Made by a program: the position numbers and the translations under genes
Source: Candidatus Parcubacteria bacterium
Lineage (GTDB): Bacteria > Patescibacteriota > Minisyncoccia > Phycocordibacterales > UBA918
Length of the DNA: 64,000 bases
Direction: 5' to 3'
NCBI GenBank assembly: GCA_021731405.1
Contig: JAKFXN010000004.1
Span: 1,563 to 65,562, forward strand
Shown here: positions 1 through 30,580 of the stretch, in pieces
Position numbering within the stretch: the first letter of the stretch is position 1
Layout of the letters: each line of letters opens with the position of its first letter
The notes under the pieces: model-generated
Told to the model about the DNA's origin: nothing
Databases searched by the model: none
What the model saw: only the letters and a program-made list of their open reading frames with translations

Positions 1-2
1 GA

Positions 3-1241
3 GGCACCTTCACCTATGAACTTGAATTTCCCGATACAGGTGTCTTTTGGTATCACCCACATGTACGTGAAGATTACCAGCAGGAACTCGGACTCTACGG
101 TAATTTTGTTGTCGAAGAGCCAGAATACTGGAACGATGTCGATCAAGAGGGATACCTTGTTGTTGATGACGTTCTTGAAAACGGTGATTTTGACAAAGAT
201 GTTGTAACTAATACACTGATGGGTCGTTTTGGGGATGCCCTCCTTATCAATGACTCAGAAAATTTTACGCTCAAAGTAAAACAAGGCGAAGTTACTCGTC
301 TCTTTCTCACAAACGTCGCTAATACTCGCACGTTCGATCTCGCTTTTACAGGTGCAAAGACAAAAGTAGTGGGCGGAGATAATGGTCGCATTGAGAAAGA
401 AGTAATGATTACCGATGTCGTTATTGCTCCATCAGAACGTTACGTACTTGAAGTGTTCTACTCATTGCCGGGTACATACACCATCACGCACCGTGGAAAG
501 AAAATGGGTACGGTCGTTGTTGAGCCAAGTGGCACAAATAGAACAGCAGCATTTGAAGTACTTCGAGATAACTCTGTTGATTACGCCAGTTTACGGGGAG
601 ATATGCAGTCATTACTTGCTCGTACTCCAGACAAACAGCTTCGGCTTGATATCACTATGAAGGGTGACATGGAAAAGATGATGCAAGATATGGAGAGTGG
701 CGAAGGTATGTCCATGTCGATGGGTATGGGTGGAGATGATGAAGCGATGCGCGCCCACTGCCAGATGATGCCAAATATGGCTGGTTGCGAGAAGTATCTT
801 GATTCTACAGAGTCAGAAACTAAGACTGAGAAAGATGACGGTATCGAATGGGAGGAAGGCGACATGGCAATGATGAATAGTATGAGTACTGATGAAAATA
901 TTGAGTGGTTTATAGAAGATGCGGTTACTAAAAAAAGAAATGAGGATATTGATTGGTCCTTCAAGAAGGGCGACCTTGTGAAAATAAGCATCAAGAATGA
1001 TGAAAATGGTATGCACCCAATGCAGCACCCGATTCACTTCCACGGTCAGCGCTTCGTAGTGCTCAGTCGTGACGGTGTAACCAATGACAACCTGCAGTGG
1101 AAAGACACCGTATTGATTCCTCGGGGCCAGACGGTCGATATTCTGGTTGAGATGAGTAATCCTGGCGAATGGATGGCACATTGTCATATTGCTGAACACT
1201 TGGAGTCTGGCATGATGTTCGACTTTACAGTAACTGAATAA
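3..1241 (+). CDS. multicopper oxidase, 5'-partial (open from window start), with a Met-rich insert
   Basis: Frame 3 is open from nt 3 and continuous with the listed ORF 219..1241. It has the WYHPH copper-site motif near the start and C-terminal HCHIAEHLESGMMF (the MCO type-1/trinuclear Cu motif). A Met-rich segment MSMSMGMGG resembles CueO/CopA Met-rich inserts. Confidence 0.8.
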   Translation, partial: GTFTYELEFPDTGVFWYHPHVREDYQQELGLYGNFVVEEPEYWNDVDQEGYLVVDDVLENGDFDKDVVTNTLMGRFGDALLINDSENFTLKVKQGEVTRLFLTNVANTRTFDLAFTGAKTKVVGGDNGRIEKEVMITDVVIAPSERYVLEVFYSLPGTYTITHRGKKMGTVVVEPSGTNRTAAFEVLRDNSVDYASLRGDMQSLLARTPDKQLRLDITMKGDMEKMMQDMESGEGMSMSMGMGGDDEAMRAHCQMMPNMAGCEKYLDSTESETKTEKDDGIEWEEGDMAMMNSMSTDENIEWFIEDAVTKKRNEDIDWSFKKGDLVKISIKNDENGMHPMQHPIHFHGQRFVVLSRDGVTNDNLQWKDTVLIPRGQTVDILVEMSNPGEWMAHCHIAEHLESGMMFDFTVTE

Positions 1242-1252
1242 TCAAATATCGT

Positions 1253-2077
1253 ATGTCTTATAAAAAAATTATGTATGGGTCTGTCCTGGCAGGAATCGTA
1301 GTGGTAAGCGCTGTATCGTTTTGGTCACGAAGAGACACGACTATTCCTGATGCTCCAGCTGGAAATTCCAATACTGTCACCATTAATGACGTGATGAGTA
1401 TTGTCTCTCCGACCACTGACACCGTTACAGAAGTTACGGTGTCAGCTGTCACAATGCCTGAACCTGGCTTTATTGTCGTACGCGAAGTTGATGACACACG
1501 ACTAGGACAAATTGTCGAAATCAGTAGCTACCTTGAAGCTGGTATGCAAACTAATATCACTGTTCCGCTAGGAGACGAACCAAGACCAACCGATAGTCTT
1601 GTGGTCATGGTATACGGAGATGCTAAGAATGACAAAGTCATGAACGACCTCGATCGCCCAGTGCGAACAGTCAGCAATCTCCCGATTGCTTACTATGTAC
1701 AAAGTGGTCAATCCGTTCCCATCGATATTTTAGCTAATGGCTTTCAAGCTGAAGCTATAGCGATGATGGAAATGGGAAAAAGCATGCCGGGCATGGCCAT
1801 GCCGATGGAAACAATCCGCTATACCAATGAAGGCTATGTGCCCGCGAACATAACGGTTAAGGCAGGTACCATGGTGATGTTTGTAAATGAAAGTGATCAA
1901 GATATGTGGGCTGCTTCAAATGGTCATCCGGCTCACACGGATTTGCCAACCTTTGATCAATTTGAGTTTTCACCAAAAGGTAGCCAGTATGTCTACACCT
2001 TCGATCAGGTCGGGTCTTGGAAGTATCATGATCATATTGCACCAATTTATGGCGGAGTTATTACTGTCACTGAATAA
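1253..2077 (+). CDS. membrane-anchored/secreted cupredoxin-like copper protein, Met-rich
   Basis: N-terminal TM helix. The C-terminal segment GHPAH..WKYHDHIAPIYGGVITVTE resembles type-1 Cu ligand spacing. The Met-rich AMMEMGKSMPGMAMPME segment and C-terminal tail resemble the upstream MCO. Confidence 0.5.
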   Translation: MSYKKIMYGSVLAGIVVVSAVSFWSRRDTTIPDAPAGNSNTVTINDVMSIVSPTTDTVTEVTVSAVTMPEPGFIVVREVDDTRLGQIVEISSYLEAGMQTNITVPLGDEPRPTDSLVVMVYGDAKNDKVMNDLDRPVRTVSNLPIAYYVQSGQSVPIDILANGFQAEAIAMMEMGKSMPGMAMPMETIRYTNEGYVPANITVKAGTMVMFVNESDQDMWAASNGHPAHTDLPTFDQFEFSPKGSQYVYTFDQVGSWKYHDHIAPIYGGVITVTE

Positions 2078-2086
2078 TAATTACGT

Positions 2087-2800
2087 ATGTTATTAGGAAT
2101 TAAAAGTACAAAAACGTTACTGTTACGACATCTAGGTGTGGCGATTGCGGGTATCCTTGCGGTCACATTGGTCTGGCAGGTAAATAGCACATGGAGTCCC
2201 GATATGCGACTCTGGAAAGCGTTTGGTGGAGGATCATTCTTTTTGCTCTGGTTTGCGCTATTTATTGGACCTGCCGCTCGGGTCTGGCTACCACTCCAAC
2301 GTTTCGTTTCGTTTCGTCGCGAAGCAGGAGTATGGTTTTTTCTGATTGCAGTGGTGCATTCGTACCTCATTCTTGATGGGTGGGTACGTTGGAGTGTCTG
2401 GGAGTTTTTTGGGTATCAATTTATCCCCGAAACAGAGATGTATATGCGAGTTGAGTCCGGATTTGGTCTCGCGAACTTGGCTGGATTTGTAGCTCTGACG
2501 TTTGCGCTTACTTTGGCGGCGACATCATTTGATCGGGCAATTAACTTTCTAGGTGTGTCATCGTGGAAATGGCTACATTCGTTCTCGTACTTGGTGTTTT
2601 ATCTCAGTGCTATCCACGTCCTGTACTTTGCCTTCATTCACTACACACCATCGCTTTTGCGAGCAGTCTTAGGGCAACCGACGAACTATCCCGATAATCC
2701 GCTCAAGTTTTATTATCTAGCAGCATTTCTAAGTGTGCTCTTGGTGCAAATTATTGCCTTTATTCTGACAGTTCGTAAACAAAGAAATAGTGGTTGGTAA
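2087..2800 (+). CDS. ferric-reductase-like transmembrane domain protein (bis-heme b, MsrQ/FRE-type)
   Basis: About 6 TM helices. Conserved His pairs in TM helices (VVHSYLIL; LHSFSYLVFYLSAIHVLYFAFIH with H-x13-H spacing) are typical of PF01794-type heme ligation. Confidence 0.5.
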   Translation: MLLGIKSTKTLLLRHLGVAIAGILAVTLVWQVNSTWSPDMRLWKAFGGGSFFLLWFALFIGPAARVWLPLQRFVSFRREAGVWFFLIAVVHSYLILDGWVRWSVWEFFGYQFIPETEMYMRVESGFGLANLAGFVALTFALTLAATSFDRAINFLGVSSWKWLHSFSYLVFYLSAIHVLYFAFIHYTPSLLRAVLGQPTNYPDNPLKFYYLAAFLSVLLVQIIAFILTVRKQRNSGW

Positions 2801-2802
2801 GT

Positions 2803-3483
2803 ATGTACTTTGAAACACAAAAAATATCCCATCAGTTGGTTGCAAAGAACACCTACGAGGTCGTCTTCAAACGTCCGAAAGGTTTTGTATTTACCGTTGG
2901 TCAGTATACACAAGTTGCACTTCAGCACCTGATTCATCCAGATCCCAAAGGACGGTCGCGTCAGTTTTCAATTGCAACCTCGCCACTGAATCTTACCCAA
3001 ATCGCAGTCGTGTTTCGTGATACTGGTAGCGGCTTCAAACGGACATTGCTTGAATTACCTGTCGGTTCATTAGTTACCCTAGAACAAGGAGCGGGGAGTT
3101 TTGGTTTGCCTATAGTCCCAACAAAGCCTCTGGTCCTTGTGGCTGGTGGAGTCGGTATTGCACCATTCATTAGTTATATTCGCACGATAGCTGTCACAAC
3201 ACTACCGCAACCTATAACGTTGTTGTATGGTAATCAGCATCCTGAAAGTGCAGCTTATCGGAATGAAATAACTTTGTTTGCAAAAAAGTTTCAACAGTTC
3301 AGACTTGAAGAAATCTACAAGCAACCTACTCCTGCGCTATTCGCAAAATACGCAAACAAATTACATTCGGCAACGTGGTTTGTGGTTGGTCCGCCAGGCA
3401 TGGTAGCGACCACTGTGTATGGACTGGAAGCTGCTGGAGTCCACCCGAACTCGATTATTAAAGAATCATTTGATGGATACTAA
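2803..3483 (+). CDS. FNR-like FAD/NAD(P)-binding oxidoreductase domain protein
   Basis: RQFSIATSP (the RxYS FAD-binding motif), GGVGIAPF (the NAD(P)-binding GGxGxxP motif) and C-terminal VVGPPGM. The reading frame opens with TTG at 2794, overlapping the stop of the upstream gene; the likely ATG is at 2803. Confidence 0.6.
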   Translation: MYFETQKISHQLVAKNTYEVVFKRPKGFVFTVGQYTQVALQHLIHPDPKGRSRQFSIATSPLNLTQIAVVFRDTGSGFKRTLLELPVGSLVTLEQGAGSFGLPIVPTKPLVLVAGGVGIAPFISYIRTIAVTTLPQPITLLYGNQHPESAAYRNEITLFAKKFQQFRLEEIYKQPTPALFAKYANKLHSATWFVVGPPGMVATTVYGLEAAGVHPNSIIKESFDGY

Positions 3484-3591
3484 AATAGTTAAAAAATGTA
3501 ATGTCCAAAATTATTAAACTAATACCATTGTCATAATGTTAACTAACAAAACCGCTCACTATTGTGAGCGGTTTTGTTATACGTACTATCT

Positions 3592-4278
3592 TTATAATCC
3601 AGTCAGCAATTTTTTCATTAGTTGAATCTCCTCAGTCTGTGTTTCAACTATTGCTTTCGATAAATCAGTAATCTCTTTATGTTCAATATACGGCTGGACA
3701 CTTTGCGCCATCATAACTGCTCCCATATGGTGCATGAGCATGTCTTCCAAGAACACCTTATCAAGTGCTGCTCCACTGAGTTTTGATAGGTCCCGCATCA
3801 TTGGTTCATAATCGTTAGGATCAGCAACATACGCTTCTCCATACCATTCCTGATACCAGCCTTTCATCATGGCGATTTCTTTCTCTTGAGCTACAATGAT
3901 GTCTTCCGCTAACTTCTTAATCTCAGGCGTTGAGCCACCACGAGCAATGACTTCTTTGGCAGTATCAACTGCTTCTTGATGGTGTGGAAGCATACCTTCA
4001 AGAAACTCTCGTTCGCTTTTTACCATCATGGCACTGTGATCCATGCCTCCCATCATACCCATACCAGAATTGGATTCGCTGGTTGGAGAGGTTGGATTAC
4101 CCATAAGTGAACCATCGGGCATACGGTGCATACCAGCCGGTACGTCATCTTGAGTATTCATATCCATGTTCATACCCATTGAATTGTCGGTAGACTTGCT
4201 CGTGCCAAAGCTATACGAAACTGCTCCGATGACTAATACTGCTAATCCTATAATTATTGCAACTGATTGATTTTTCAT
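3592..4278 (-). CDS. DUF305-family periplasmic protein (copper-resistance associated), Met-rich
   Basis: Signal/TM N-terminus. Paired HH motifs (LEGMLPHHQEAV; LEDMLMHHMGAVMM) are typical of DUF305. Met-rich MGMNMDM.. region. There is a paralog at 26126..26788. Confidence 0.7.
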   Translation of the reverse strand: MKNQSVAIIIGLAVLVIGAVSYSFGTSKSTDNSMGMNMDMNTQDDVPAGMHRMPDGSLMGNPTSPTSESNSGMGMMGGMDHSAMMVKSEREFLEGMLPHHQEAVDTAKEVIARGGSTPEIKKLAEDIIVAQEKEIAMMKGWYQEWYGEAYVADPNDYEPMMRDLSKLSGAALDKVFLEDMLMHHMGAVMMAQSVQPYIEHKEITDLSKAIVETQTEEIQLMKKLLTGL

Positions 4279-4292
4279 AAATAATTTATTTG

Positions 4293-4841
4293 TTACATGA
4301 CCATCATGGTCATACTATTAAACATCACGAGCATCCAGAGACACATAAGTATCATAAAACTAGCTTCAATAAGCGTGACGGTTGAAAGCGGCAGCTTAAA
4401 ATACGTTCCGAGGCACACACAGTGCAGTGTCTCTTTTTTCATCATTGACTGGATTGCTCCATACAGACTAGCACTGTATATAAAGAGCGTGATGAGTGTT
4501 GCAGGTAGAATAATGATCTGGAGAATAAAGAGAATACCTAAAGTGATTTCAAGAAACGGATACGACTGGGCATAGGCAATACTTCGTTTCGCTAATGGAT
4601 CGTACTTTGCAAATCCATCCGCAAAACCAACGACATCAGTGAGTTTAATGAGTCCAAAAAATACTAGTACCCAGCCCATGAGGTGAGACATATAGTCGGG
4701 ATACATGTGCCATTGTGCACTATATACAGACACTATGGCAGCTACTATATACAGGAGGGCAATCGGCCAATATGACCAGATAGGTACCTTGGCGGTATTA
4801 TGAACTCGTACTTCGTGATGGTTTGTTACTGTATGTTCCAT
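4293..4841 (-). CDS. integral membrane protein with conserved HCVCLGTYFKLP CxC motif (putative metal-handling; DUF4396/MauE-like)
   Basis: 4-5 TM helices. It is about 60% identical to the paralog at 26800..27348, and both sit between csoR and the DUF305 gene. Confidence 0.6.
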   Translation of the reverse strand: MEHTVTNHHEVRVHNTAKVPIWSYWPIALLYIVAAIVSVYSAQWHMYPDYMSHLMGWVLVFFGLIKLTDVVGFADGFAKYDPLAKRSIAYAQSYPFLEITLGILFILQIIILPATLITLFIYSASLYGAIQSMMKKETLHCVCLGTYFKLPLSTVTLIEASFMILMCLWMLVMFNSMTMMVM

Positions 4842-4851
4842 ATGATTAACG

Positions 4852-5187
4852 TTATTTTTCTAAGGTTTTACCTAATGTGTAAAAAGTGACTGCTCCGACT
4901 CCCCACGCAAACGGTAGCCAGAGTGGTATTGGTAATACGCCGGCGTTGCTCCAAACTTGCACTCGATCAATGCTAGTCAGTAATAGTTCGATTGCTAACC
5001 CAAGTGAAAATCCGATAACATATAAGCAGAGAATCACTTTCTCTCTTTTTATATTTCTTAAGATGTAGAGTGAGTACAGTACGACAAGTACTAACGGTAC
5101 ATATTCGTTACCATGGAATAACACCTCAGTTGCAAAGAATACTGCTAGTAGACAGACATACTTAAGTAAAAGAAAAGTTTTGTTCAT
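4852..5187 (-). CDS. small integral membrane protein
   Basis: 111-aa ORF with 3 predicted TM helices, located inside the csoR cassette. No paralog in the second cassette. Confidence 0.45.
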   Translation of the reverse strand: MNKTFLLLKYVCLLAVFFATEVLFHGNEYVPLVLVVLYSLYILRNIKREKVILCLYVIGFSLGLAIELLLTSIDRVQVWSNAGVLPIPLWLPFAWGVGAVTFYTLGKTLEK

Positions 5188-5195
5188 ACCTGCTA

Positions 5196-5462
5196 CTATT
5201 TTCTTTTTAACTGGTAGACTCGCAAAATTTCTTCAGTAGCTTTGGCAGCTTTTCCAACTTTAATTTGGTTCACAACACAGTTACTAAGGTGTTCTTCAAG
5301 TAATACATCTTCAATGTTTGAAAGTGCTTGCTTGATGGCAGAGGTTTGGGTAATGACATCAATACAGTACGTTTCTTTCTCAATCATACCTTGCAAGCCA
5401 CGCACTTGACCTTCGATGATCTTAAGTCGACGAATTAGTTTTTTATGTGATTCTTTCATCAT
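5196..5462 (-). CDS. csoR: CsoR/RcnR-family (DUF156) copper-sensing transcriptional repressor
   Basis: 88 aa, with the C-H-C signature (YCIDV...EEHLSNC). Near-identical paralog at 27350..27616. A palindromic operator lies directly upstream. Confidence 0.8.
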   Translation of the reverse strand: MMKESHKKLIRRLKIIEGQVRGLQGMIEKETYCIDVITQTSAIKQALSNIEDVLLEEHLSNCVVNQIKVGKAAKATEEILRVYQLKRK

Positions 5463-5470
5463 GAGGAATA

Positions 5471-5488
5471 ATACCCCCTTGGGGGTAT
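5471..5488. promoter_or_regulatory. CsoR-type operator palindrome ATACCCCC-TT-GGGGGTAT
   Basis: Perfect 8-2-8 inverted repeat, 9 nt upstream of the csoR start. It resembles the known B. subtilis CsoR operator (TACCC..GGGTA) and is repeated at 7743..7760 and 27625..27642. Confidence 0.55.
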
Positions 5489-5512
5489 TATTGCAACTAT
5501 GATAAACACATA

Positions 5513-7732
5513 CTAATTGTCAGCCGTTAAGTCTTTCTCTACTCGCTTCAGCAGCACTGCGTTAACCGCTACGATAATTGAAGATATGCTCATTAAAAGC
5601 GCAGCGAATTCTGGACGAAGCATAATACCGAAACTCGGATACAAGATTCCACCAGCAACTGGTATAGCTAGAACATTGTAAATTGAAGCCCAGAAAAGAT
5701 TTTGTTTCATTTTTCGAACTGTTGCCTTACTTAAGGTTATTGCCCTAAGAATGTCTAACGGGTCAGATTTCATAAGGACCACTTTTGCTGTTTCAATCGC
5801 TACGTCAGTGCCCGCACCAATTGCGATGCCAACGTCAGCTTGAGCAAGTGCTGGAGCATCATTAACGCCGTCACCAACCATTGCGGTAAATTTTCCTTCT
5901 TTCTGGAGTTTTTTCACATACCCAGCTTTATCTGCAGGCATCACTTCCGCAAATACTCTCTCTATACCAATTTGACTCGCCACTTTATCTGCTGTCGTTT
6001 TGTTGTCGCCGGTGATCATGGCAATTTCAATTCCTAAAGCCTTTAACCGCTCCACAGCTTTTATAGCATTTTGTTTTATTGGATCTTGCGCTCCTATCAC
6101 TGCTTTAATAGCACCGTCGACTGCCAATATCATAATTGTTTCTCCTCTTTCCAAAAACTCATTTATTTTCGGCTCCAAAGTGCTGAGAGTAATGTTATTT
6201 TCTATCATGAGCTTTACGGTACCAATAAGCAGAGATTTTCCATCTACAACAGCTTTTACTCCTAAGCCAGACAGGTTTTCAAATTTATCAACTGATTCTG
6301 GTAGCGTGAGGTCACGTTTTTTAAGCTCCTCAAGTACGGCACCTGCCAACGGGTGAGATGACTTCGCTTCTGCCGCGCCAACAAAGCGAAGCGCCTCACC
6401 TGCATCATATCCATTTATCGTGGCAACATCTGTAATTTTTGGCTTTCCTTCAGTGAGCGTGCCAGTTTTATCGAGAACTATTGCTTGAATCTTTGAGACT
6501 TGTTCAAGTGTTGTTGCGTCTTTAATGAGAATATTATGTCTTGCTCCAATGCCGGTACCGACAGCAACTGCCGTCGGGGTAGCAAGTCCAAGCGCATCTG
6601 GACACGCAATAACAATGGTGGCGATGGTAAAGGAAAGTGCCAAAAGTATCGGCACTCCGACGACAAAATACCAAATAACAAAAACCAAAAGACCAGAACC
6701 TAAAGCACCAATGACTAGGTATTTTGCAAATCTATCAGCAATTCTTTGACCTGGAGCTTTCGAGTTTTGGGCTTCTTCAACGAGGCGAACAATCTGAGCA
6801 AGAGCTGTATCTTTACCAATTTTTGTTGCTTTAAATTTAACAGATCCAGTAGTATTGATTGATCCGCCGATCACCGGATCCCCAGTCTTTTTAGGAGTAG
6901 GGATTGATTCCCCGGTAACTAAAGATTCATCGATAGCAGTTTCTCCTTCTATTATCTCCCCATCAACAGGCACCTTGTCGCCCGGCTTGAGGATAATGAT
7001 GTCTCCAAGCTGGATATCTGAAGTAGAAACCATTACCTCCTTCCCATCTTTAAAAACTCTGGCTTGGGGCGGTACCAGATTGAAAAGTGCCTGAAGAGCG
7101 TCAGTTGTTCCGCGACGAGACTTCATCTCCATCCAGTGTCCGAAGAGAACAAAAGTAATGAGCATGGCGGCCGCTTCGTAGTATGAATCTGTACTGCCAA
7201 TTACAGTAAGTAAAATACTAAAACCATACGCCGCAGTAATACCAACAGCAATGAGCACGGCCATATTGAGGACTCTTTCTTTCAATGCGAAATAGGTCGA
7301 GTACAGAAAAATCCAGCCCGAATAAAAGAATACTGGTGTTGTTAAAATAAAGAGAAGCCACGGGAGTGGCATTGGAGAAGGAAGATTGAGCTTTAGAAAC
7401 TCAGTGCCGAGTGGCGAATACAGAATTATAGGAATCGTGAGTACAAGTGCAAAAAAGAATTTATTTCGAATATCTATCTCCATCAACCGAGCCATCTCAC
7501 GACCCGCAAGTCCTGTATGGTCCATGCCCATAGTCATAGACATACTCATCTTAAATTTCCCCCACATACTCATCTTAGAGGAGTCTCCCATTACATGACC
7601 AGAGTGAGCGCCGTGGTCTATGGTCTTTTCATTCTTTACGAGCATCATCCAGCACTTCGGACATCTGCCAGGTTTGTCTTTTTTCACACCTGGATGCATC
7701 GGACAAGCGTATAGTTTTTTATTGTTTGTCAT
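5513..7732 (-). CDS. copA: Cu(I)-translocating P1B-type ATPase
   Basis: CPC motif in TM6 (IACPDALGLATP), DKTGTLT, GDGVNDAPAL. N-terminal CPMHP...CPKC heavy-metal-binding domain plus a His/Met-rich stretch. The start is set at the Met of MTNNKK because the upstream operator lies inside the longer listed ORF. Confidence 0.9.
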   Translation of the reverse strand: MTNNKKLYACPMHPGVKKDKPGRCPKCWMMLVKNEKTIDHGAHSGHVMGDSSKMSMWGKFKMSMSMTMGMDHTGLAGREMARLMEIDIRNKFFFALVLTIPIILYSPLGTEFLKLNLPSPMPLPWLLFILTTPVFFYSGWIFLYSTYFALKERVLNMAVLIAVGITAAYGFSILLTVIGSTDSYYEAAAMLITFVLFGHWMEMKSRRGTTDALQALFNLVPPQARVFKDGKEVMVSTSDIQLGDIIILKPGDKVPVDGEIIEGETAIDESLVTGESIPTPKKTGDPVIGGSINTTGSVKFKATKIGKDTALAQIVRLVEEAQNSKAPGQRIADRFAKYLVIGALGSGLLVFVIWYFVVGVPILLALSFTIATIVIACPDALGLATPTAVAVGTGIGARHNILIKDATTLEQVSKIQAIVLDKTGTLTEGKPKITDVATINGYDAGEALRFVGAAEAKSSHPLAGAVLEELKKRDLTLPESVDKFENLSGLGVKAVVDGKSLLIGTVKLMIENNITLSTLEPKINEFLERGETIMILAVDGAIKAVIGAQDPIKQNAIKAVERLKALGIEIAMITGDNKTTADKVASQIGIERVFAEVMPADKAGYVKKLQKEGKFTAMVGDGVNDAPALAQADVGIAIGAGTDVAIETAKVVLMKSDPLDILRAITLSKATVRKMKQNLFWASIYNVLAIPVAGGILYPSFGIMLRPEFAALLMSISSIIVAVNAVLLKRVEKDLTADN

Positions 7733-7742
7733 TGTAACAATA

Positions 7743-7760
7743 ATACCCCTGAGGGGGTAT
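7743..7760. promoter_or_regulatory. CsoR-type operator palindrome ATACCCC-TGAG-GGGGTAT upstream of copA
   Basis: 7-4-7 inverted repeat, 11 nt upstream of the proposed copA start. Same half-sites as the csoR operators. Confidence 0.55.
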
Positions 7761-7807
7761 CTATGCAACTTGAATACCAATCTAATGGTACTGTCAGTGC
7801 AAAATAG

Positions 7808-8143
7808 TTATATCTTATTACAGGAGGTCCACCAGCAGTCTAAAGAGTCAGTAATCATATGTAAAAGTAAACCGACAGCAATGACTTGGATATAAAAATT
7901 AGGAACAAACAGAAGTAATGTATATATACAGATTGCAAAATATGAATGAAGAGGATGGAACCCAATACTACAGCGGTTAGGATCAAAAATTGGTCTGGCA
8001 AGTAAATGGTCAAGGTCAACCAACATAGTTCCAATCATTATGGCCCAGGCAAGCTCCCACCGCTCACTAAAAAATATCCAGGCTAGAAACCCGGGAGCTA
8101 AAAAATGTAAACTATAGTGGATGATAGTTTGTAGCTTAGGCAT
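7808..8143 (-). CDS. hypothetical integral membrane protein
   Basis: 111-aa ORF with 3-4 TM helices and no recognisable motifs. Confidence 0.4.
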   Translation of the reverse strand: MPKLQTIIHYSLHFLAPGFLAWIFFSERWELAWAIMIGTMLVDLDHLLARPIFDPNRCSIGFHPLHSYFAICIYTLLLFVPNFYIQVIAVGLLLHMITDSLDCWWTSCNKI

Positions 8144-8196: not shown

Positions 8197-8286
8197 TGGC
8201 GGAGAGAGAGGGATTCGAACCCTCGAGGAGCTTTCACCCCTAACGGTTTTCAAGACCGCCGCCTTCAACCACTCAGCCATCTCTCC
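8197..8286 (-). tRNA. tRNA-Ser(TGA), CCA encoded
   Basis: The reverse complement folds as a cloverleaf: acceptor GGAGAGA/TCTCTCC, anticodon loop CTTGAAA, long variable arm, T-loop GGTTCGAATCC, discriminator G then CCA. A hairpin follows at 8161..8190. Confidence 0.85.
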
Positions 8287-9084: not shown

Positions 9085-9266
9085 CAAACGGCCGGCCCAA
9101 ATGCGAAAGCATTTGGGCCGTTGTCGTTTGTAGTTCTCGCCAGGAATCGAAAGACGGAGCCGGGGACCCTCTGGGCAGGCGAGTCGGGGTCGAGAACACT
9201 TAGTAGATTTGGAGCGAAGCGAACAAATGTACTTAGTGATTCGTGACCGAGACTGGCGAGAGCACA
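9085..9266 (+). repeat. tRNA-3'-end-linked structured element, copy E1 (downstream of tRNA-Arg-GCG)
   Basis: Order of parts: a long bulged hairpin at 9085..9131; an antisense copy of the tRNA T-arm/acceptor (agttctcgccaggaatcgaa) at 9132..9151; a module with GAGCGAAGCGAA; and a direct repeat of the tRNA 3' end, CTGGCGAGAGCACA, at 9073..9086 and 9253..9266. Confidence 0.55.
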
Positions 9267-14551: not shown

Positions 14552-14601
14552 GTTGTGCTTGGGTTAAAGCTTCTGTGAGGTCAAGTTTCTAAATTCACTG
14601 T

Positions 14602-14800
14602 CCGCGAGGAATGATCCTGCAGTTTCTAATTCGCTACGCTCATAAGAACTGCTGGACGCAGCTCACTAGTTTTCTTTCTAGAAAGGAAAGAAAACATCGC
14701 TCCGCTGGTTCGATTCCTACGGAAAGTGCATTAGCACTTTCCTCGCGGGGGCACGAACAAAAACAGCACACTTAAATAAAGTGTGCTGTTTTTATACTCG
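14602..14800 (-). repeat. tRNA-3'-end-linked structured element, copy E3 (downstream of tRNA-Arg-TCT)
   Basis: Read on the + strand: a direct-repeat copy CCGCGAGGAAT at 14602..14612; a conserved block CGCTACGCTCATAAGAACTGCTGGACGCAGCTCAC; a hairpin GTTTTCTTTC-TAGAAAG-GAAAGAAAAC; CGCTCCGCTGG; a T-loop copy GGTTCGATTCCT + AC + hairpin GGAAAGTGC-atta-GCACTTTCC + CCTCGCGGGGGCA (inverted copy of the tRNA 3' end); and a terminator hairpin at 14759..14794. Confidence 0.55.
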
Positions 14801-14872
14801 TGCCCCCGCGAGGAATCGAACCTCGAATAACGGCTTAGAAGTCCGCAGTTATATCCATTTAACTACAGGGGC
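14801..14872 (-). tRNA. tRNA-Arg(TCT)
   Basis: Reverse complement GCCCCTG..CGGGGGCA. Anticodon loop CTTCTAA, T-arm CGAGGTTCGATTCCTCG, 72 nt. Confidence 0.8.
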
Positions 14873-15046
14873 AAGTGAGGAATAGAATGGAAGCTTGCTT
14901 ACATTCTAGTTCCGAACGCAGCCCTTGTATGCGGAGCATACAGGGGCAAACGTTCAACTTGAAGATTCAGGTCACCTCGCTCGCAAGAATAGCAGAAAAC
15001 AAGAGGAGAGGGAATATATAAAAGAATGCCCCACCAAGGTGGGGCA

Positions 15047-15475
15047 TTAATGCGTGTGTGTTTTGGAGGGGGTTACCTCAAGTCGCAGAATGATGTCTCT
15101 GTAAAAGAAAAAACCTTTGACCTTTCCGCGTTCTGGTGGAGCTTGATAGAATTCTCGCCTCTCTTCGTGTACTAGCATCGAGACTGCTGTTATGAACCCC
15201 TGATCACCAATTCCGTATATATAAGAAGTGGGACTGTCCTCAGTTGAGGTGATGGTAGCTCCGGGAAAAAGTGTGGAGGTCTGTGATTGGAGTTGGCTAA
15301 TTAAGTAGTCAAACTGAACGCAGGGTATCACACAGAAAATGGCTGCCTCCTCTCGATTTCCAGCCATTTTCATGGCTTTTACGGCAAGACCTGCCAGCTC
15401 CTCTAACTTTGGAGCTATGGAGGCTACCAGTTTCTCTACGAGATGGTTGGATACTTCCATACTATAACCCTCCAA
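15047..15475 (-). CDS. hypothetical protein
   Basis: 142-aa ORF followed by a terminator hairpin at about 15017..15043. Confidence 0.4.
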   Translation of the reverse strand: MEGYSMEVSNHLVEKLVASIAPKLEELAGLAVKAMKMAGNREEAAIFCVIPCVQFDYLISQLQSQTSTLFPGATITSTEDSPTSYIYGIGDQGFITAVSMLVHEERREFYQAPPERGKVKGFFFYRDIILRLEVTPSKTHTH

Positions 15476-15582
15476 TTGTTTAAAGAACTAGAAAATAGAG
15501 TACGGCCAAAATAAAAATCTGTAAAGCAAAATTGGTTTTGAAATTTAAAAAGCGGTACCAACGAAGTTAGTACCGCCTTTGG

Positions 15583-16029
15583 TTACAGCAAGTGTCCAAA
15601 ATTGCTTGGTTTGACCTGCATGATTTCAACTCTTGTTCTTGTACAGACAAGAGCTTTTACGAAACCTGGTGAGAGAGGTGTATTCAGAATGACCTCAGTC
15701 GTTTCAGGGAGCATTTTTTCAAAATTTGCAAAAAATGTCTCGGTGGCAACCCCATAAAAAACAGGACTGCTTTTTGGTGATTGAACTTTCTTCCAGTCAC
15801 TTCGTTCCTCGACTCCTTCAATAAGCCTTCTCCAGCTGGAATTCCCTTCAAGGCAAAAAACAATAAATTCTTCAGGCTGGCGATTGTTGCGATGAACCTC
15901 TTCCCAAGCAAGGGTCTGAAGAATTCGTGCTGCTTCGTAGACAACAAGTGCGTGGAAATCTTCTGGATCCAACTCATCTGTAGCCAATGTGTGATTCGTA
16001 GTCATGGTTTGCTCCCAGAACAGTTGCAA
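15583..16029 (-). CDS. hypothetical protein
   Basis: 148-aa ORF with the most protein-like composition of three overlapping frames. Confidence 0.4.
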   Translation of the reverse strand: MQLFWEQTMTTNHTLATDELDPEDFHALVVYEAARILQTLAWEEVHRNNRQPEEFIVFCLEGNSSWRRLIEGVEERSDWKKVQSPKSSPVFYGVATETFFANFEKMLPETTEVILNTPLSPGFVKALVCTRTRVEIMQVKPSNFGHLL

Positions 16030-16134
16030 AAGAACAAATTACCTACGTACAATACTGCTAACGCTGCTTTTGTAAAGAGAAGAGTTATTTATGTGCAAAA
16101 AGTCGTTAGCAGAAGCTAACGACTTTTTGTATTG

Positions 16135-16414
16135 TGTGCGATGAGAGATTAGTCCCACTTTTTCTAATTCCTTAACAGGAACTGTCCACTCATTGGGGTT
16201 TTTCATTCTTCAAAACACCTCAATGAGTCTTGCGAAATGACATTATGGTCATTTCTCACGCTTCGCTCATAAGAACGCTGGACGCGGCTCAACGGTTTCA
16301 ATTTCTGGGAAAGGAAATTGAAACACGTCTCCGCCGTTCAAATCTCTACAAAAGTGCCGCAGGGCACTTTTTCATCGCGCATATAAAAAACCCGCATTGC
16401 GGGCTTTTTATCTG
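16135..16414 (-). repeat. tRNA-3'-end-linked structured element, copy E4 (downstream of tRNA-Val)
   Basis: Read on the + strand: a direct-repeat copy TGTGCGATGAGAGATT at 16135..16150; a long imperfect hairpin; CGCTTCGCTCATAAGAACGCTGGACGCGGCTCAAC (31/34 identical to E3); a hairpin GTTTCAATTTC-TGGGAAAG-GAAATTGAAAC; CGTCTCCGCCG; a T-loop copy TTCAAATCTCT + AC + hairpin AAAAGTGCC-gcag-GGCACTTTT + TCATCGCGCA; and a terminator at 16386..16409. Confidence 0.55.
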
Positions 16415-16487
16415 TGCGCGATGAGAGATTTGAACTCCCGACCTTCTCAGTGTAAATGAGCTGCTCTACCAACTGAGCTAATCGCGC
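16415..16487 (-). tRNA. tRNA-Val(TAC)
   Basis: Reverse complement GCGCGAT..ATCGCGCA. Anticodon loop TTTACAC, T-arm AGGTCGGGAGTTCAAATCTCTC. Confidence 0.85.
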
Positions 16488-19121: not shown

Positions 19122-19309
19122 CAAATAAAAACTCCCCGAAAGGGAGTTTTTTGTGTCTAAGAAAAATGTGCCCTGCGGCACATTTGCCTGGATTTGAAAA
19201 CCGCAGTGATGCCGAAGGCGAGCGAGGTGGGGTCGAGAGTACTTAGCAGAATCTGAGCTTGCGAAAGATTATGCTTAGTAACTCGTGACCTAATCCAGTC
19301 TTGGACACA
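19122..19309 (+). repeat. tRNA-3'-end-linked structured element, copy E2 (downstream of tRNA-Leu)
   Basis: Terminator hairpin at 19126..19151; hairpin AAATGTGCC-ctgc-GGCACATTT; an antisense T-loop copy GCCTGGATTTGAA; a module GGGGTCGAGAGTACTTAGCAGAATCTGAGCTTGCGAAAG..CTTAGTAACTCGTGACC homologous to E1; and an 18-nt direct repeat AATCCAGTCTTGGACACA at 19106..19123 and 19292..19309. Confidence 0.55.
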
Positions 19310-30407: not shown

Positions 30408-30580
30408 GGCGGCTATCGGGGTAATATTTCCCTACGGGAACGGTACAGTCTTCATAGCTCACTTCGCCAAAGGCTCGCTCCGCTATATTCAGACTCTTCG
30501 ATTCCCGAACGGAAGCAAAGCAGTTTGCTTCCTTAGCCGTCCTCTACGTAAAAATCCCCCGAAGGGGATTCTTACTACGA
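30408..30580 (-). repeat. tRNA-3'-end-linked structured element, copy E5 (reduced; downstream of tRNA-His)
   Basis: Read on the + strand: a direct-repeat copy GGGCGGCTATCGGG at 30408..30421 (matching 30581..30594 of the tRNA); AGCTCAC..CGCTCCGCT blocks; a T-loop copy TTCGATTCCCGA + AC + hairpin GGAAGCAAAGC-agtt-TGCTTCC + TTAGCCG; and a terminator AAAAATCCCCcgaaGGGGATT at 30550..30571. Confidence 0.5.

What the first reader, a model, noticed from the sequence alone, without database searches (positions are those of the whole stretch)
14602..16414. E3 and E4 share a 31/34-nt conserved block and a GGAAAGG-loop hairpin whose stems are entirely different
E3 reads CGCTACGCTCATAAGAACTGCTGGACGCAGCTCAC followed by GTTTTCTTTC-TAGAAAG-GAAAGAAAAC. 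E4 reads CGCTTCGCTCATAAGAAC-GCTGGACGCGGCTCAAC followed by GTTTCAATTTC-TGGGAAAG-GAAATTGAAAC. The single-stranded block is nearly invariant, while every stem position of the adjacent hairpin differs yet still pairs. Both are followed by CG(C/T)CTCCGC, then the inverted T-loop copy with the AC+hairpin insertion exactly between the T-stem 3' strand and the acceptor 3' strand. A conserved unpaired block, a structurally conserved hairpin with a conserved loop, and a tRNA 3'-half mimic together fit a functional RNA. It could also be a protein- or ribozyme-recognition site.
Basis: seen in the sequence. Interest (0 to 1): 0.7.

Follow-up and report, generated by a model that had tools for sequence, protein, structure and literature searches.

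The report
tRNA-targeted cassette end module, Patescibacteria
E3 and E4 are two gene-less copies of a small mobile DNA cassette, apparently undescribed, that sits just behind tRNA and tmRNA genes in Patescibacteria; its conserved block, hairpins and tRNA-end copy look like a folded DNA insertion site rather than an RNA gene.

Summary
E3 (14601-14797) and E4 (16133-16412) share a 31/34 block, a compensated hairpin, CGYCTCCGC and an inverted copy of the neighbouring tRNA's 3' end, split by AC + 22-nt hairpin + T.

About 90 relatives were found, all in Patescibacteria MAGs or metagenomes. Each lies 3' of a tRNA (over 25 anticodons) or a tmRNA, on the opposite strand, and most are flanked by a ~21-bp direct repeat of the tRNA 3' end.

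Units occur:
- in tandem;
- as 1-versus-2-copy polymorphisms between otherwise identical contigs;
- as filled versus empty orthologous sites;
- as the 3' end of cassettes carrying accessory or defence genes (L030).

One helix (Pb) covaries strongly, and about 50 nt are invariant.

The helices lack the RNA signature. G.T versus A.C counts are 0:1 in 347 hairpin pairs, 7:9 in Pa/Pb and 26:26 in Pc. tRNA stems from the same loci give 75:2.

My best reading is a folded-DNA attachment module. The target copy X' pairs with the distal repeat, as in integron attC or CTX-phage attP(+). It would serve tRNA-targeted integrative cassettes whose recombinase acts in trans and was not identified.

There is no Rfam, phage, plasmid or literature match.

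The parts
14601..14614 (+). E3 X_far': degenerate antisense remnant of the tRNA-Arg(TCT) 3' end. It is the distal direct repeat when read on the tRNA strand.
   Evidence: it pairs with the mimic in the fold
14615..14657 (+). E3 helix Pa/Pa' (TCCTGCAG...CTGCTGGA and TTCT...AGAA) with the conserved loop AATTCGCTACGCTCATA.
14658..14707 (+). E3 helix Pb (CAGC 14659-14662 with GCTG 14704-14707), enclosing the variable hairpin Pc (14669-14695).
   Evidence: Pb covariation; Pc
14708..14756 (+). E3 X' mimic: T-loop 14709-14715, CCT, then the AC + 22-nt hairpin + T insert (14719-14743), then CGCGGGGGCA + CGA. It is identical to the tRNA-Arg 3' end.
14757..14797 (.). E3 element-borne bidirectional terminator at the centre of the X'/tRNA-3'-end palindrome.
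   Evidence: the flanks GAGTAYAAAAA...TTTTTGTTCGTG are shared between Arg and Val sites in other genomes
14800..14872 (-). tRNA-Arg(TCT), the target gene of E3. CCA is not encoded.
16133..16152 (+). E4 X_far': antisense copy of the tRNA-Val 3' end with 1 mismatch. It is preceded by a distal terminator at 16097-16131.
16153..16283 (+). E4 helix Pa (TCCCAC...GCTGGAC) carrying an 88-nt structured insertion (16170-16257). The same insertion is found in L017, L028, L039 and L068.
16285..16336 (+). E4 helix Pb (CGGC 16285-16288 with GCCG 16333-16336), enclosing hairpin Pc (16295-16324).
16337..16383 (+). E4 X' mimic: T-loop 16337-16343, CTCT, then the AC + 22-nt hairpin + T insert (16348-16372), then CATCGCGCA.
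16384..16412 (.). E4 bidirectional terminator.
16414..16487 (-). tRNA-Val(TAC), the target gene of E4.
9086..9266 (-). E1: related unit of another subfamily behind tRNA-Arg(GCG), with inverted copy at 9132-9150 and direct repeat at 9253-9264.
19123..19309 (-). E2: related unit behind tRNA-Leu(GAG). Its inverted copy (19145-19202) carries a 22-nt hairpin; the direct repeat is at 19290-19307.
30408..30580 (+). E5: shorter related unit behind tRNA-His(GTG). The direct repeat is at 30408-30425; the mimic (30497-30540) has the AC-hairpin-T insert.

Best explanation
E3 and E4 are gene-less members of a family of small integrative cassettes. These cassettes insert immediately 3' of tRNA and tmRNA genes in Patescibacteria (class Paceibacteria and relatives).

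**The mobile unit, read on the tRNA strand**
(optional leader and cargo genes) - terminator - X' (imperfect inverted copy of the target's T-loop-to-3'-end segment) - a conserved ~110-nt core with helices Pa and Pb/Pc - X (direct copy of the same ~21-bp segment).

**Proposed mechanism (inferred)**
1. It acts as folded DNA, not as an RNA.
2. X' pairs with X to give a ~20-bp stem that imitates the duplex 3' end of the target tRNA gene.
3. That stem is marked on one strand by an extra-helical feature: a 22-nt hairpin in some copies, a single extra T in others.
4. The stem is closed by a three-way junction with the invariant core, where a trans-encoded recombinase would bind.
5. Insertion happens at the 3' boundary of the tRNA. 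The tRNA stays intact and the cassette supplies a new terminator.

**What is shown**
- The anatomy, the family and its target range.
- Direct repeats, tandem arrays, cargo genes and polymorphisms.
- Covariation in Pb and the strand-symmetric pairing.

**What is inferred**
- The single-stranded or folded DNA intermediate.
- Recognition of the target through homology.
- The existence and type of the recombinase.
For: **Family and target**
- About 90 copies, all behind tRNA or tmRNA genes on the opposite strand.
- The ~21-bp repeat is identical to the tRNA 3' end in 19 of 50 copies.

**Evidence of mobility**
- Empty sites at tRNA-Arg(TCT) in L004 and L006, filled sites in the window and L005.
- tRNA-Val carries E3/4-type units in three genomes but two E1-type units in L005.
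- L069 and L088 have 799/799 identical flanks and differ by exactly one 188-bp unit.
- Tandem arrays occur in L084, L088, L037 and L053.

**Cargo cassettes**
- L030 reads: tRNA-Gln, then an ORF-less unit, then X, then ORF + module, then X, then radical-SAM + CYTH ORFs + module, then X.
- ThsB-TIR, a helicase and other accessory genes lie next to modules that have no adjacent tRNA.

**The element carries both X' and X**
- In L071, the mimic and the distal repeat are both TGGGATC, while the resident tRNA has TAGGGTC.

**Structure**
- Pb covaries.
- Folds have z = -5.8 and -7.1, and the same architecture appears on either strand with DNA or RNA parameters.

**DNA rather than RNA**
- G.T versus A.C counts are 0:1 of 347 pairs, 7:9 and 26:26. 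tRNA stems in the same loci give 75:2.
- No promoter-like site lies upstream, and Rfam gives no match.
Against: - No recombinase was found in 149 neighbouring ORFs or by clustering 562 ORFs, nor among 38 of the window's 73 predicted ORFs scanned (the rest were not scanned). The mechanism therefore lacks its enzyme.
- About 50 invariant nucleotides in the 'loop' is unlike attC or CTX attP sites, and is what a protein- or RNA-scaffold would show.
- Pairing between X' and the distal repeat is not visibly maintained after insertion. Mean distance between mimic and distal repeat is 4.1 of 11 positions. In old copies the mimic stays equal to the tRNA while the distal repeat decays.
- The three X copies are discordant in every possible combination (L005, L015, L071), so the crossover point is unresolved.
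- How a cassette acquires X and X' for a new tRNA species is unexplained.
- Transcription was not tested.
Confidence: 0.45

Rival explanations
1. Classical double-stranded att remnants. The units would be what is left (attL/attR plus attP arms) of tRNA-targeting islands moved by ordinary tyrosine or serine integrases, comparable to cis-mobilisable elements. The conserved core would be arm-type protein binding sites, and the hairpins incidental.
For: - Direct repeats of the tRNA 3' end, tandem arrays and cargo genes are what integrase-driven islands produce.
- A large-serine-recombinase island abuts the 3' end of tRNA-Ser or tRNA-Trp in this same organism group.
Against: - No integrase lies in or beside any of the ~90 copies.
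- One core family sits at more than 25 different tRNAs plus tmRNA, whereas a given integrase is usually specific for one.
- Pb covariation and hairpins of fixed geometry with hypervariable sequence have no role in duplex arm sites.
- The obligatory inverted target copy X' is not a feature of such att sites.
Confidence: 0.2
2. Guide RNA. The core would be the scaffold, and the tRNA-end copy the guide, of an RNA made from the strand opposite the tRNA. This RNA would direct a trans-encoded recombinase or transposase to tRNA 3' ends, in the manner of IS110 bridge RNAs or the tRNA-matching homing crRNA of type V-K CRISPR transposons.
For: - It has a conserved scaffold plus a variable segment that tracks the adjacent target.
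- A terminator follows directly.
- In old copies the mimic stays identical to the tRNA.
- E3 lies in the 3' untranslated region of a convergent operon, so it could be transcribed.
Against: - Wobble pairs are strand-symmetric: 0 G.U in 347 hairpin pairs against about 6% in tRNA stems.
- There is no promoter-like site, and E4 is preceded by a terminator.
- No effector gene is nearby.
- Recently inserted copies with perfect direct repeats often have 2-4 mismatches or an extra T in the mimic.
Confidence: 0.15
3. A structured small RNA acting in tRNA biology. It would be a tRNA 3'-half mimic or decoy, or a substrate of RNase P, RNase Z or the CCA-adding enzyme.
For: - The T-loop, T-stem and acceptor copy is exact in E3 and E4.
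- The 5' remnant can pair with it to form an acceptor/T-like helix.
Against: - The same module terminates cargo cassettes kilobases from the tRNA.
- It is absent from about half of tRNAs and absent at orthologous tRNAs in relatives.
- There is no RNA-type wobble bias.
- No T-stem 5' strand lies next to the T-loop.
- Rfam gives no match.
Confidence: 0.07
4. A passive sequence module spread by homologous recombination after natural transformation. It would be an extended palindromic terminator and/or DNA-uptake signal, anchored by the tRNA gene and the 21-bp repeat, with no dedicated recombinase.
For: - It always includes a terminator.
- Patescibacteria carry competence and pilus genes (PilM and others in the window).
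- A 1-versus-2-copy polymorphism can arise by unequal crossing-over between repeats.
Against: - It does not explain the first creation of the repeat at more than 25 different tRNAs.
- It does not explain Pb covariation or the fixed 9-bp/4-nt hairpin.
- It does not explain the foreign X'/X pair behind a different tRNA in L071.
Confidence: 0.08

Closest known systems
Integron gene cassettes and their attC sites
   Same: - Arrays of short cassettes, each ending in an imperfect palindromic site defined more by structure than by sequence.
- Extra-helical features on one arm.
- ORF-less cassettes exist.
- The cargo is accessory or defence genes.
- The pairing constraint is at the DNA level.
   Different: - There is no intI/attI/Pc platform; the docking site is the 3' end of any tRNA or tmRNA.
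- There are no RYYYAAC/GTTRRRY boxes.
- Here the stem varies (it copies the target) and the 'loop' is a ~110-nt invariant structured core, the reverse of attC.
- A ~21-bp direct repeat flanks each unit.
CTX-phage-type folded attP(+) (mobile elements that exploit Xer recombinases)
   Same: - Two inverted target-like segments about 100 nt apart can fold in one strand into a stem that imitates the chromosomal target.
- The integrated form shows: inverted copy - spacer - hybrid site at one end, and a hybrid site at the other.
- The enzyme is not encoded by the element.
   Different: - The target is tRNA or tmRNA 3' ends, not dif.
- No Xer involvement is shown.
- The spacer is highly conserved and structured.
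- The elements are 150-300 bp or small cassettes, not phage genomes.
tRNA/tmRNA-targeting genomic islands, including tycheposons of Prochlorococcus (bioRxiv 10.1101/2020.12.28.424599) and Islander-type islands (PMC4383910)
   Same: - Insertion at tRNA or tmRNA 3' ends.
- The displaced 3' fragment appears as a direct repeat.
- Tandem arrays, cargo of accessory genes, and members that are cargo only.
   Different: - Those carry, or sit beside, their own integrase, and each integrase family has its own tRNA.
- They have no conserved structured module with an inverted target copy.
- Sizes are kilobases, not 150-300 bp.
IS110 bridge RNA and the tRNA-matching homing crRNA of type V-K CRISPR transposons
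   Same: An element-borne conserved scaffold is joined to a segment that matches the insertion target.
   Different: - No recombinase or Cas gene is adjacent.
- Both halves of the mimic are collinear with one target strand.
- There is no RNA-type wobble signature.
- The direct repeats are long.

Membership tests
Integron attC site / integron cassette | R''/R' core boxes RYYYAAC ... GTTRRRY at the ends of the palindrome | tested here: not met
   The stem ends are the T-loop (GTTCRAW) and the acceptor end. The consensus has no GTTRRRY box.
Integron attC site / integron cassette | An adjacent integron integrase (intI) with attI and the Pc promoter | tested here: not met
   No tyrosine recombinase was found among the neighbours of about 90 copies. 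The array starts at a tRNA gene.
Integron attC site / integron cassette | An imperfect hairpin with extra-helical bases, recombined as a single strand | tested here: inconclusive
   X' carries a 22-nt hairpin or one extra T relative to X, and pairing is strand-symmetric. Single-strand recombination cannot be tested with these tools.
Integrase-driven tRNA genomic island | A direct repeat of the tRNA 3' fragment bounding the element | tested here: met
   (19 of 50 identical)
Integrase-driven tRNA genomic island | An integrase gene inside the element | tested here: not met
CTX-type folded attP(+) / Xer-exploiting element | Two inverted target-like sites that fold into a target mimic | tested here: met
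   X' and X_far form a ~20-bp stem.
CTX-type folded attP(+) / Xer-exploiting element | The target is dif and the enzyme is XerC/D | tested here: not met
   The targets are tRNA or tmRNA 3' ends. The enzyme is unknown.
IS110-type bridge RNA | Encoded next to a DEDD/serine IS110 recombinase within the insertion sequence | tested here: not met
   No such gene is nearby.
IS110-type bridge RNA | A functional RNA with strand-specific structure | tested here: not met
   Wobble counts are symmetric, against 75:2 in tRNAs. No promoter-like site was found.
Any Rfam 15 RNA family (tRNA-like, tmRNA, YrlA, ribozymes) | A covariance-model match at or near the gathering score | tested here: not met
   Only the tRNAs themselves match. 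The sub-threshold hits are unrelated hairpin families.
MITE (miniature inverted-repeat transposable element) | Constant terminal inverted repeats plus a short target-site duplication | tested here: not met
   The only inverted repeat (X'/X) changes with the target tRNA, and the repeat is ~21 bp of tRNA sequence.

The most novel reading that the evidence does not exclude
Paceibacteria may possess an integron-like gene-capture system with no fixed platform. Any tRNA or tmRNA 3' end would serve as a docking site. Each cassette would carry its own address: a built-in inverted copy of the target that folds with the direct copy into a DNA mimic of the target. A single trans-acting enzyme would recognise the invariant three-way-junction core. 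This would be nucleic-acid-addressed site-specific recombination at the DNA level, and a main route of gene gain in these reduced genomes.
Probability: 0.25. Interest if true: 0.88.

Novelty: new variant of a known kind. Interest (0 to 1): 0.7.

Why it matters
**Scale.** About half of the tRNA genes sampled without bias in these loci carry such units (31 of 62). In this window it is 5 of 6.

**Cargo.** The same module closes cassettes carrying defence and surface genes. It may therefore be a major, unrecognised vehicle of gene flux in the Candidate Phyla Radiation, whose mobile elements are poorly known.

**Mechanism.** A recombination site in which the variable stem copies the target and the loop is invariant would be a new design. 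It could be re-addressable, which is of interest for genome engineering.

**Annotation.** These units create tRNA fragments and spurious small ORFs (for example 14611-14775) that mislead genome annotation.

Tried and rejected
- **Rfam.** Searches at gathering and permissive thresholds returned only tRNAs and unrelated hairpin hits.
- **Coding potential of the block.** Rejected: 1-nt indels and compensatory changes break any reading frame.
- **Viral contigs, phage records and plasmid records.** No copy was found.
- **Search for a partner enzyme.**
  - Pfam on 38 of the window's 73 predicted ORFs.
  - Pfam on cargo ORFs.
  - Pfam on 149 neighbours.
  - All-against-all clustering of 238 and then 562 ORFs.
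  - These gave only syntenic housekeeping genes. T4SS-pilin genes and HTH proteins turned up but are not credible catalysts.
- **Assigning the functional strand from wobble pairs.** No asymmetry was found. This became evidence for DNA-level pairing, with the tRNA control.
- **Snap-back copying of the target's own terminator as the origin of X'.** Rejected, because the terminator flanks are shared between elements at different tRNAs.
- **Simple target-site duplication.** Contradicted by L071.
- **Insertion in the T-loop with replacement of the tRNA 3' end.** Disfavoured for the same reason.
- **Strict link to tRNAs lacking encoded CCA.** Not upheld: 2 of 7 CCA-encoding bystander tRNAs carry units.
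- **Literature.** Five searches found no description of this element.
Full report
**1. The observation**

The window (GC 0.45) holds six tRNA genes.
- E3 has the block at 14634-14668, a hairpin at 14669-14695 and CGCTCCGC.
- It then has GTTCGATTCCT-AC-GGAAAGTGCATTAGCACTTTCC-T-CGCGGGGGCACGA. Apart from the 25-nt insert, this is identical to the 3' end of the convergent tRNA-Arg(TCT) at 14800-14872.
- E4 has the same layout at 16261-16383, in front of tRNA-Val(TAC).
- The exact cores GCTCATAAGAAC and GCTGGACGCRGCTCA occur only at these two sites in the window.

The description needs correcting in five respects.
1. The E3 and E4 stems differ only in their middle.
2. The E3 loop is TAGAAAG.
3. Part of the 'unpaired' block is paired.
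4. The insert lies after T-stem nucleotide 63-65.
5. Each unit also has an antisense remnant of the tRNA 3' end at its 5' side (14601-14614; 16133-16152) and a bidirectional terminator at its 3' side.

Three more tRNAs in the window carry units with the same layout but other core subfamilies: Arg-GCG, Leu-GAG and His-GTG. Only tRNA-Ser(TGA) has none.

**2. The family**

A 19-base pattern from the block found 31 loci in the genome collection. Of these, 29 are real copies, all in Patescibacteria MAGs labelled Paceibacterota, Kaiser-, Nomura-, Campbell- or Vogelbacteria, with some labelled Saccharibacteria. It found 62 loci in metagenomes and none in viral contigs, phage records or plasmid records.

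A covariance model built from 22 copies recovered 93 strong matches.

About 60 copies lie 100-340 nt from a tRNA or tmRNA gene on the opposite strand. These cover more than 25 anticodons plus tmRNA. A dozen more are cut off by contig ends, and 13 have no tRNA nearby.

The family consensus is cgTCCCGCttTTTCTAATTCgCTnCGCTCATAAGAACGCTGGACGCngCTC ... TCCGccG-tTcga, with about 50 invariant positions.

**3. Structure**

- **Pb.** Helix Pb (CRNC with GNYG, directly before the T-loop copy) covaries: GC 42 / AU 24 at one pair and GC 53 / AU 7 / CG 7 at the next, with 97% of cells paired.
- **Pa.** Pa is almost invariant. It is supported by complementarity, and by one extra pair that covaries in six copies carrying an inserted base.
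- **Pc.** Pb encloses a hairpin (Pc) of very variable sequence and length.
- **Insert in the mimic.** In 37 of 64 distinct copies, the mimic carries AC + a hairpin of fixed geometry (9-bp stem, 4-nt loop, GCAG in 18 of 39) + T. The stem is hypervariable. The other subfamily instead has one extra T near the acceptor end of the mimic.
- **Whole-unit fold.** The 5' remnant and the mimic pair over about 20 bp. This closes a three-way junction with Pa and Pb. The fold appears for a fresh copy on either strand, with RNA or DNA parameters. For E3 and E4 the z-scores are -5.8 and -7.1.

**4. RNA or DNA?**

In bona fide RNA stems from the same loci (acceptor and T stems of 104 tRNAs), G.U pairs outnumber A.C by 75 to 2 among 1248 pairs. 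The element's helices show no such bias.

| Helix | G.T : A.C (strand opposite the tRNA) |
|---|---|
| 22-nt hairpin | 0 : 1 (343 Watson-Crick of 347) |
| Pa / Pb | 7 : 9 |
| Pc | 26 : 26 on the two strands |

Pairing is therefore constrained equally on both strands. That is expected for DNA hairpins or cruciforms and not for a one-strand RNA.

No sigma-70-like site precedes E3 or E4, and E4 is preceded by a terminator. Rfam has no match. The block cannot be coding, because of its frame-breaking indels.

**5. Context: an integrative cassette**

- **Flanking repeat.** Each unit is bounded by a ~21-bp direct repeat, running from T-loop position 56/58 to 1-4 nt past the discriminator. It is identical to the tRNA in 19 of 50 copies and decayed in others.
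- **Empty and filled sites.** Orthologous tRNA-Arg(TCT) genes are empty in L004 and L006 but filled in the window and L005. tRNA-Val(TAC) carries E3/4-type units in three genomes and two E1-type units in L005.
- **The terminator belongs to the element.** Its flanks are shared between units at different tRNAs.
- **Recent change.** L069 and L088 are 799/799 identical apart from one extra 188-bp unit. Tandem arrays are common.
- **Cargo.** In L030 the array reads: tRNA-Gln, an ORF-less unit, X, leader + 231-aa ORF + module, X, radical-SAM + CYTH genes + module, X. Modules without a nearby tRNA always have convergent genes next to them, including ThsB-TIR, a ResIII helicase, an LD-carboxypeptidase and a 1791-aa protein.
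- **Which parts move.** In L071 the mimic and the distal repeat both read TGGGATC, the acceptor of another tRNA-Glu, while the resident tRNA reads TAGGGTC. The element therefore brings both copies and leaves the tRNA untouched.
- **How common.** Among tRNAs in the fetched loci that were not used for selection, 31 of 62 carry such a unit.

**6. Mechanism**

Shown: a structured, conserved end module of tRNA-targeted cassettes that are, or recently were, mobile.

Inferred: it works as folded DNA.
- X' and X form a stem that mimics the target duplex, tagged on one arm by the hairpin or the extra T.
- The invariant junction core is bound by a recombinase supplied in trans.
- Insertion is at the 3' boundary of the tRNA.

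This layout (inverted target copy, ~100-nt spacer, hybrid site) is that of CTX-phage attP(+). The cassette-array logic is that of integrons.

Weak points:
- No enzyme was found.
- The 'loop' is more conserved than in either analogue.
- X'/X pairing is not visibly maintained after insertion, whereas X' stays equal to the tRNA in old copies.
- Re-addressing to new tRNAs is unexplained.

**7. Comparison and novelty**

The module fails the defining tests for each family considered:
- integron attC (no core boxes, no intI);
- integrase-bearing islands (no integrase);
- Xer-exploiting elements (the target is not dif);
- bridge or guide RNAs (no effector gene, no RNA signature);
- MITEs;
- every Rfam family.

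Five literature searches found no description of it. I class it as a new variant of known kinds, namely tRNA-targeted integrative elements and folded-DNA attachment sites. There is a real chance it is a new type of cassette-capture system.

Noticed in passing
window 1-8143; L096 3897-16891, L097, L098: A copper-resistance island (multicopper oxidase, CopA-type ATPase, DUF6122) extends upstream of the window to a large serine recombinase gene. Its end is identical from '...CCA|AATCGTGCTAGC' onward, next to tRNA-Ser(TGA) in three contexts and tRNA-Trp(CCA) in a fourth. It is therefore a mobile island docking at tRNA 3' termini. The encoded CCA of tRNA-Ser 8197-8286 may belong to the island end.
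   Followed up: partly
L021 about 6500-6900 (- strand): A tRNA-Met(CAT) gene is interrupted in the anticodon loop by about 270 nt. This looks like a group I intron; ARAGORN does not call the gene.
   Followed up: no
L069 4495-4611 versus L088 5658-5962: Two metagenome contigs are 799/799 identical in their flanks and differ by exactly one 188-bp unit (one copy versus two tandem copies behind tRNA-Leu(CAA)).
   Followed up: yes
window 14953-14990 (-), and ORFs 15583-16029(-) and 15047-15475(-): TTGCGAGCGAGGTGACC|TGAATCTTCAAGTTGAACG resembles the end of an E1-type core followed by a degenerate tRNA-Val repeat. The two ORFs between E4 and tRNA-Arg have no Pfam match and are absent from L004 and L005. 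They may be the cargo of a decayed cassette.
   Followed up: partly
L039 2014-2688, L011 5255-5914, L044 1667-2353: ORFs of about 220 aa, with an N-terminal HTH_23 domain and a GLYWGEG motif (LAGLIDADG-like?), lie directly upstream of tRNA genes in at least two of three unrelated loci.
   Followed up: partly
L054 1530-2885, L067 243-1562, L072 2057-3412, L013 6784-7615, L023 4464-4850: T4SS-pilin (PF18895) and PrgI-family genes recur beside several modules. They may be ordinary Patescibacteria genes, or a hint of conjugative single-strand transfer.
   Followed up: no
L039 4380-4690: In one tandem array the repeated segment is about 85 bp (X + terminator + X' with hairpin) and flanks two different cores. 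Cores can therefore be exchanged between identical palindromic arms.
   Followed up: no
window 14611-14775 (+), 16230-16424 (+): Mechanical ORFs of 54 and 64 aa overlap E3 and E4. They are artefacts of the conserved module and could be mis-annotated as genes.
   Followed up: yes
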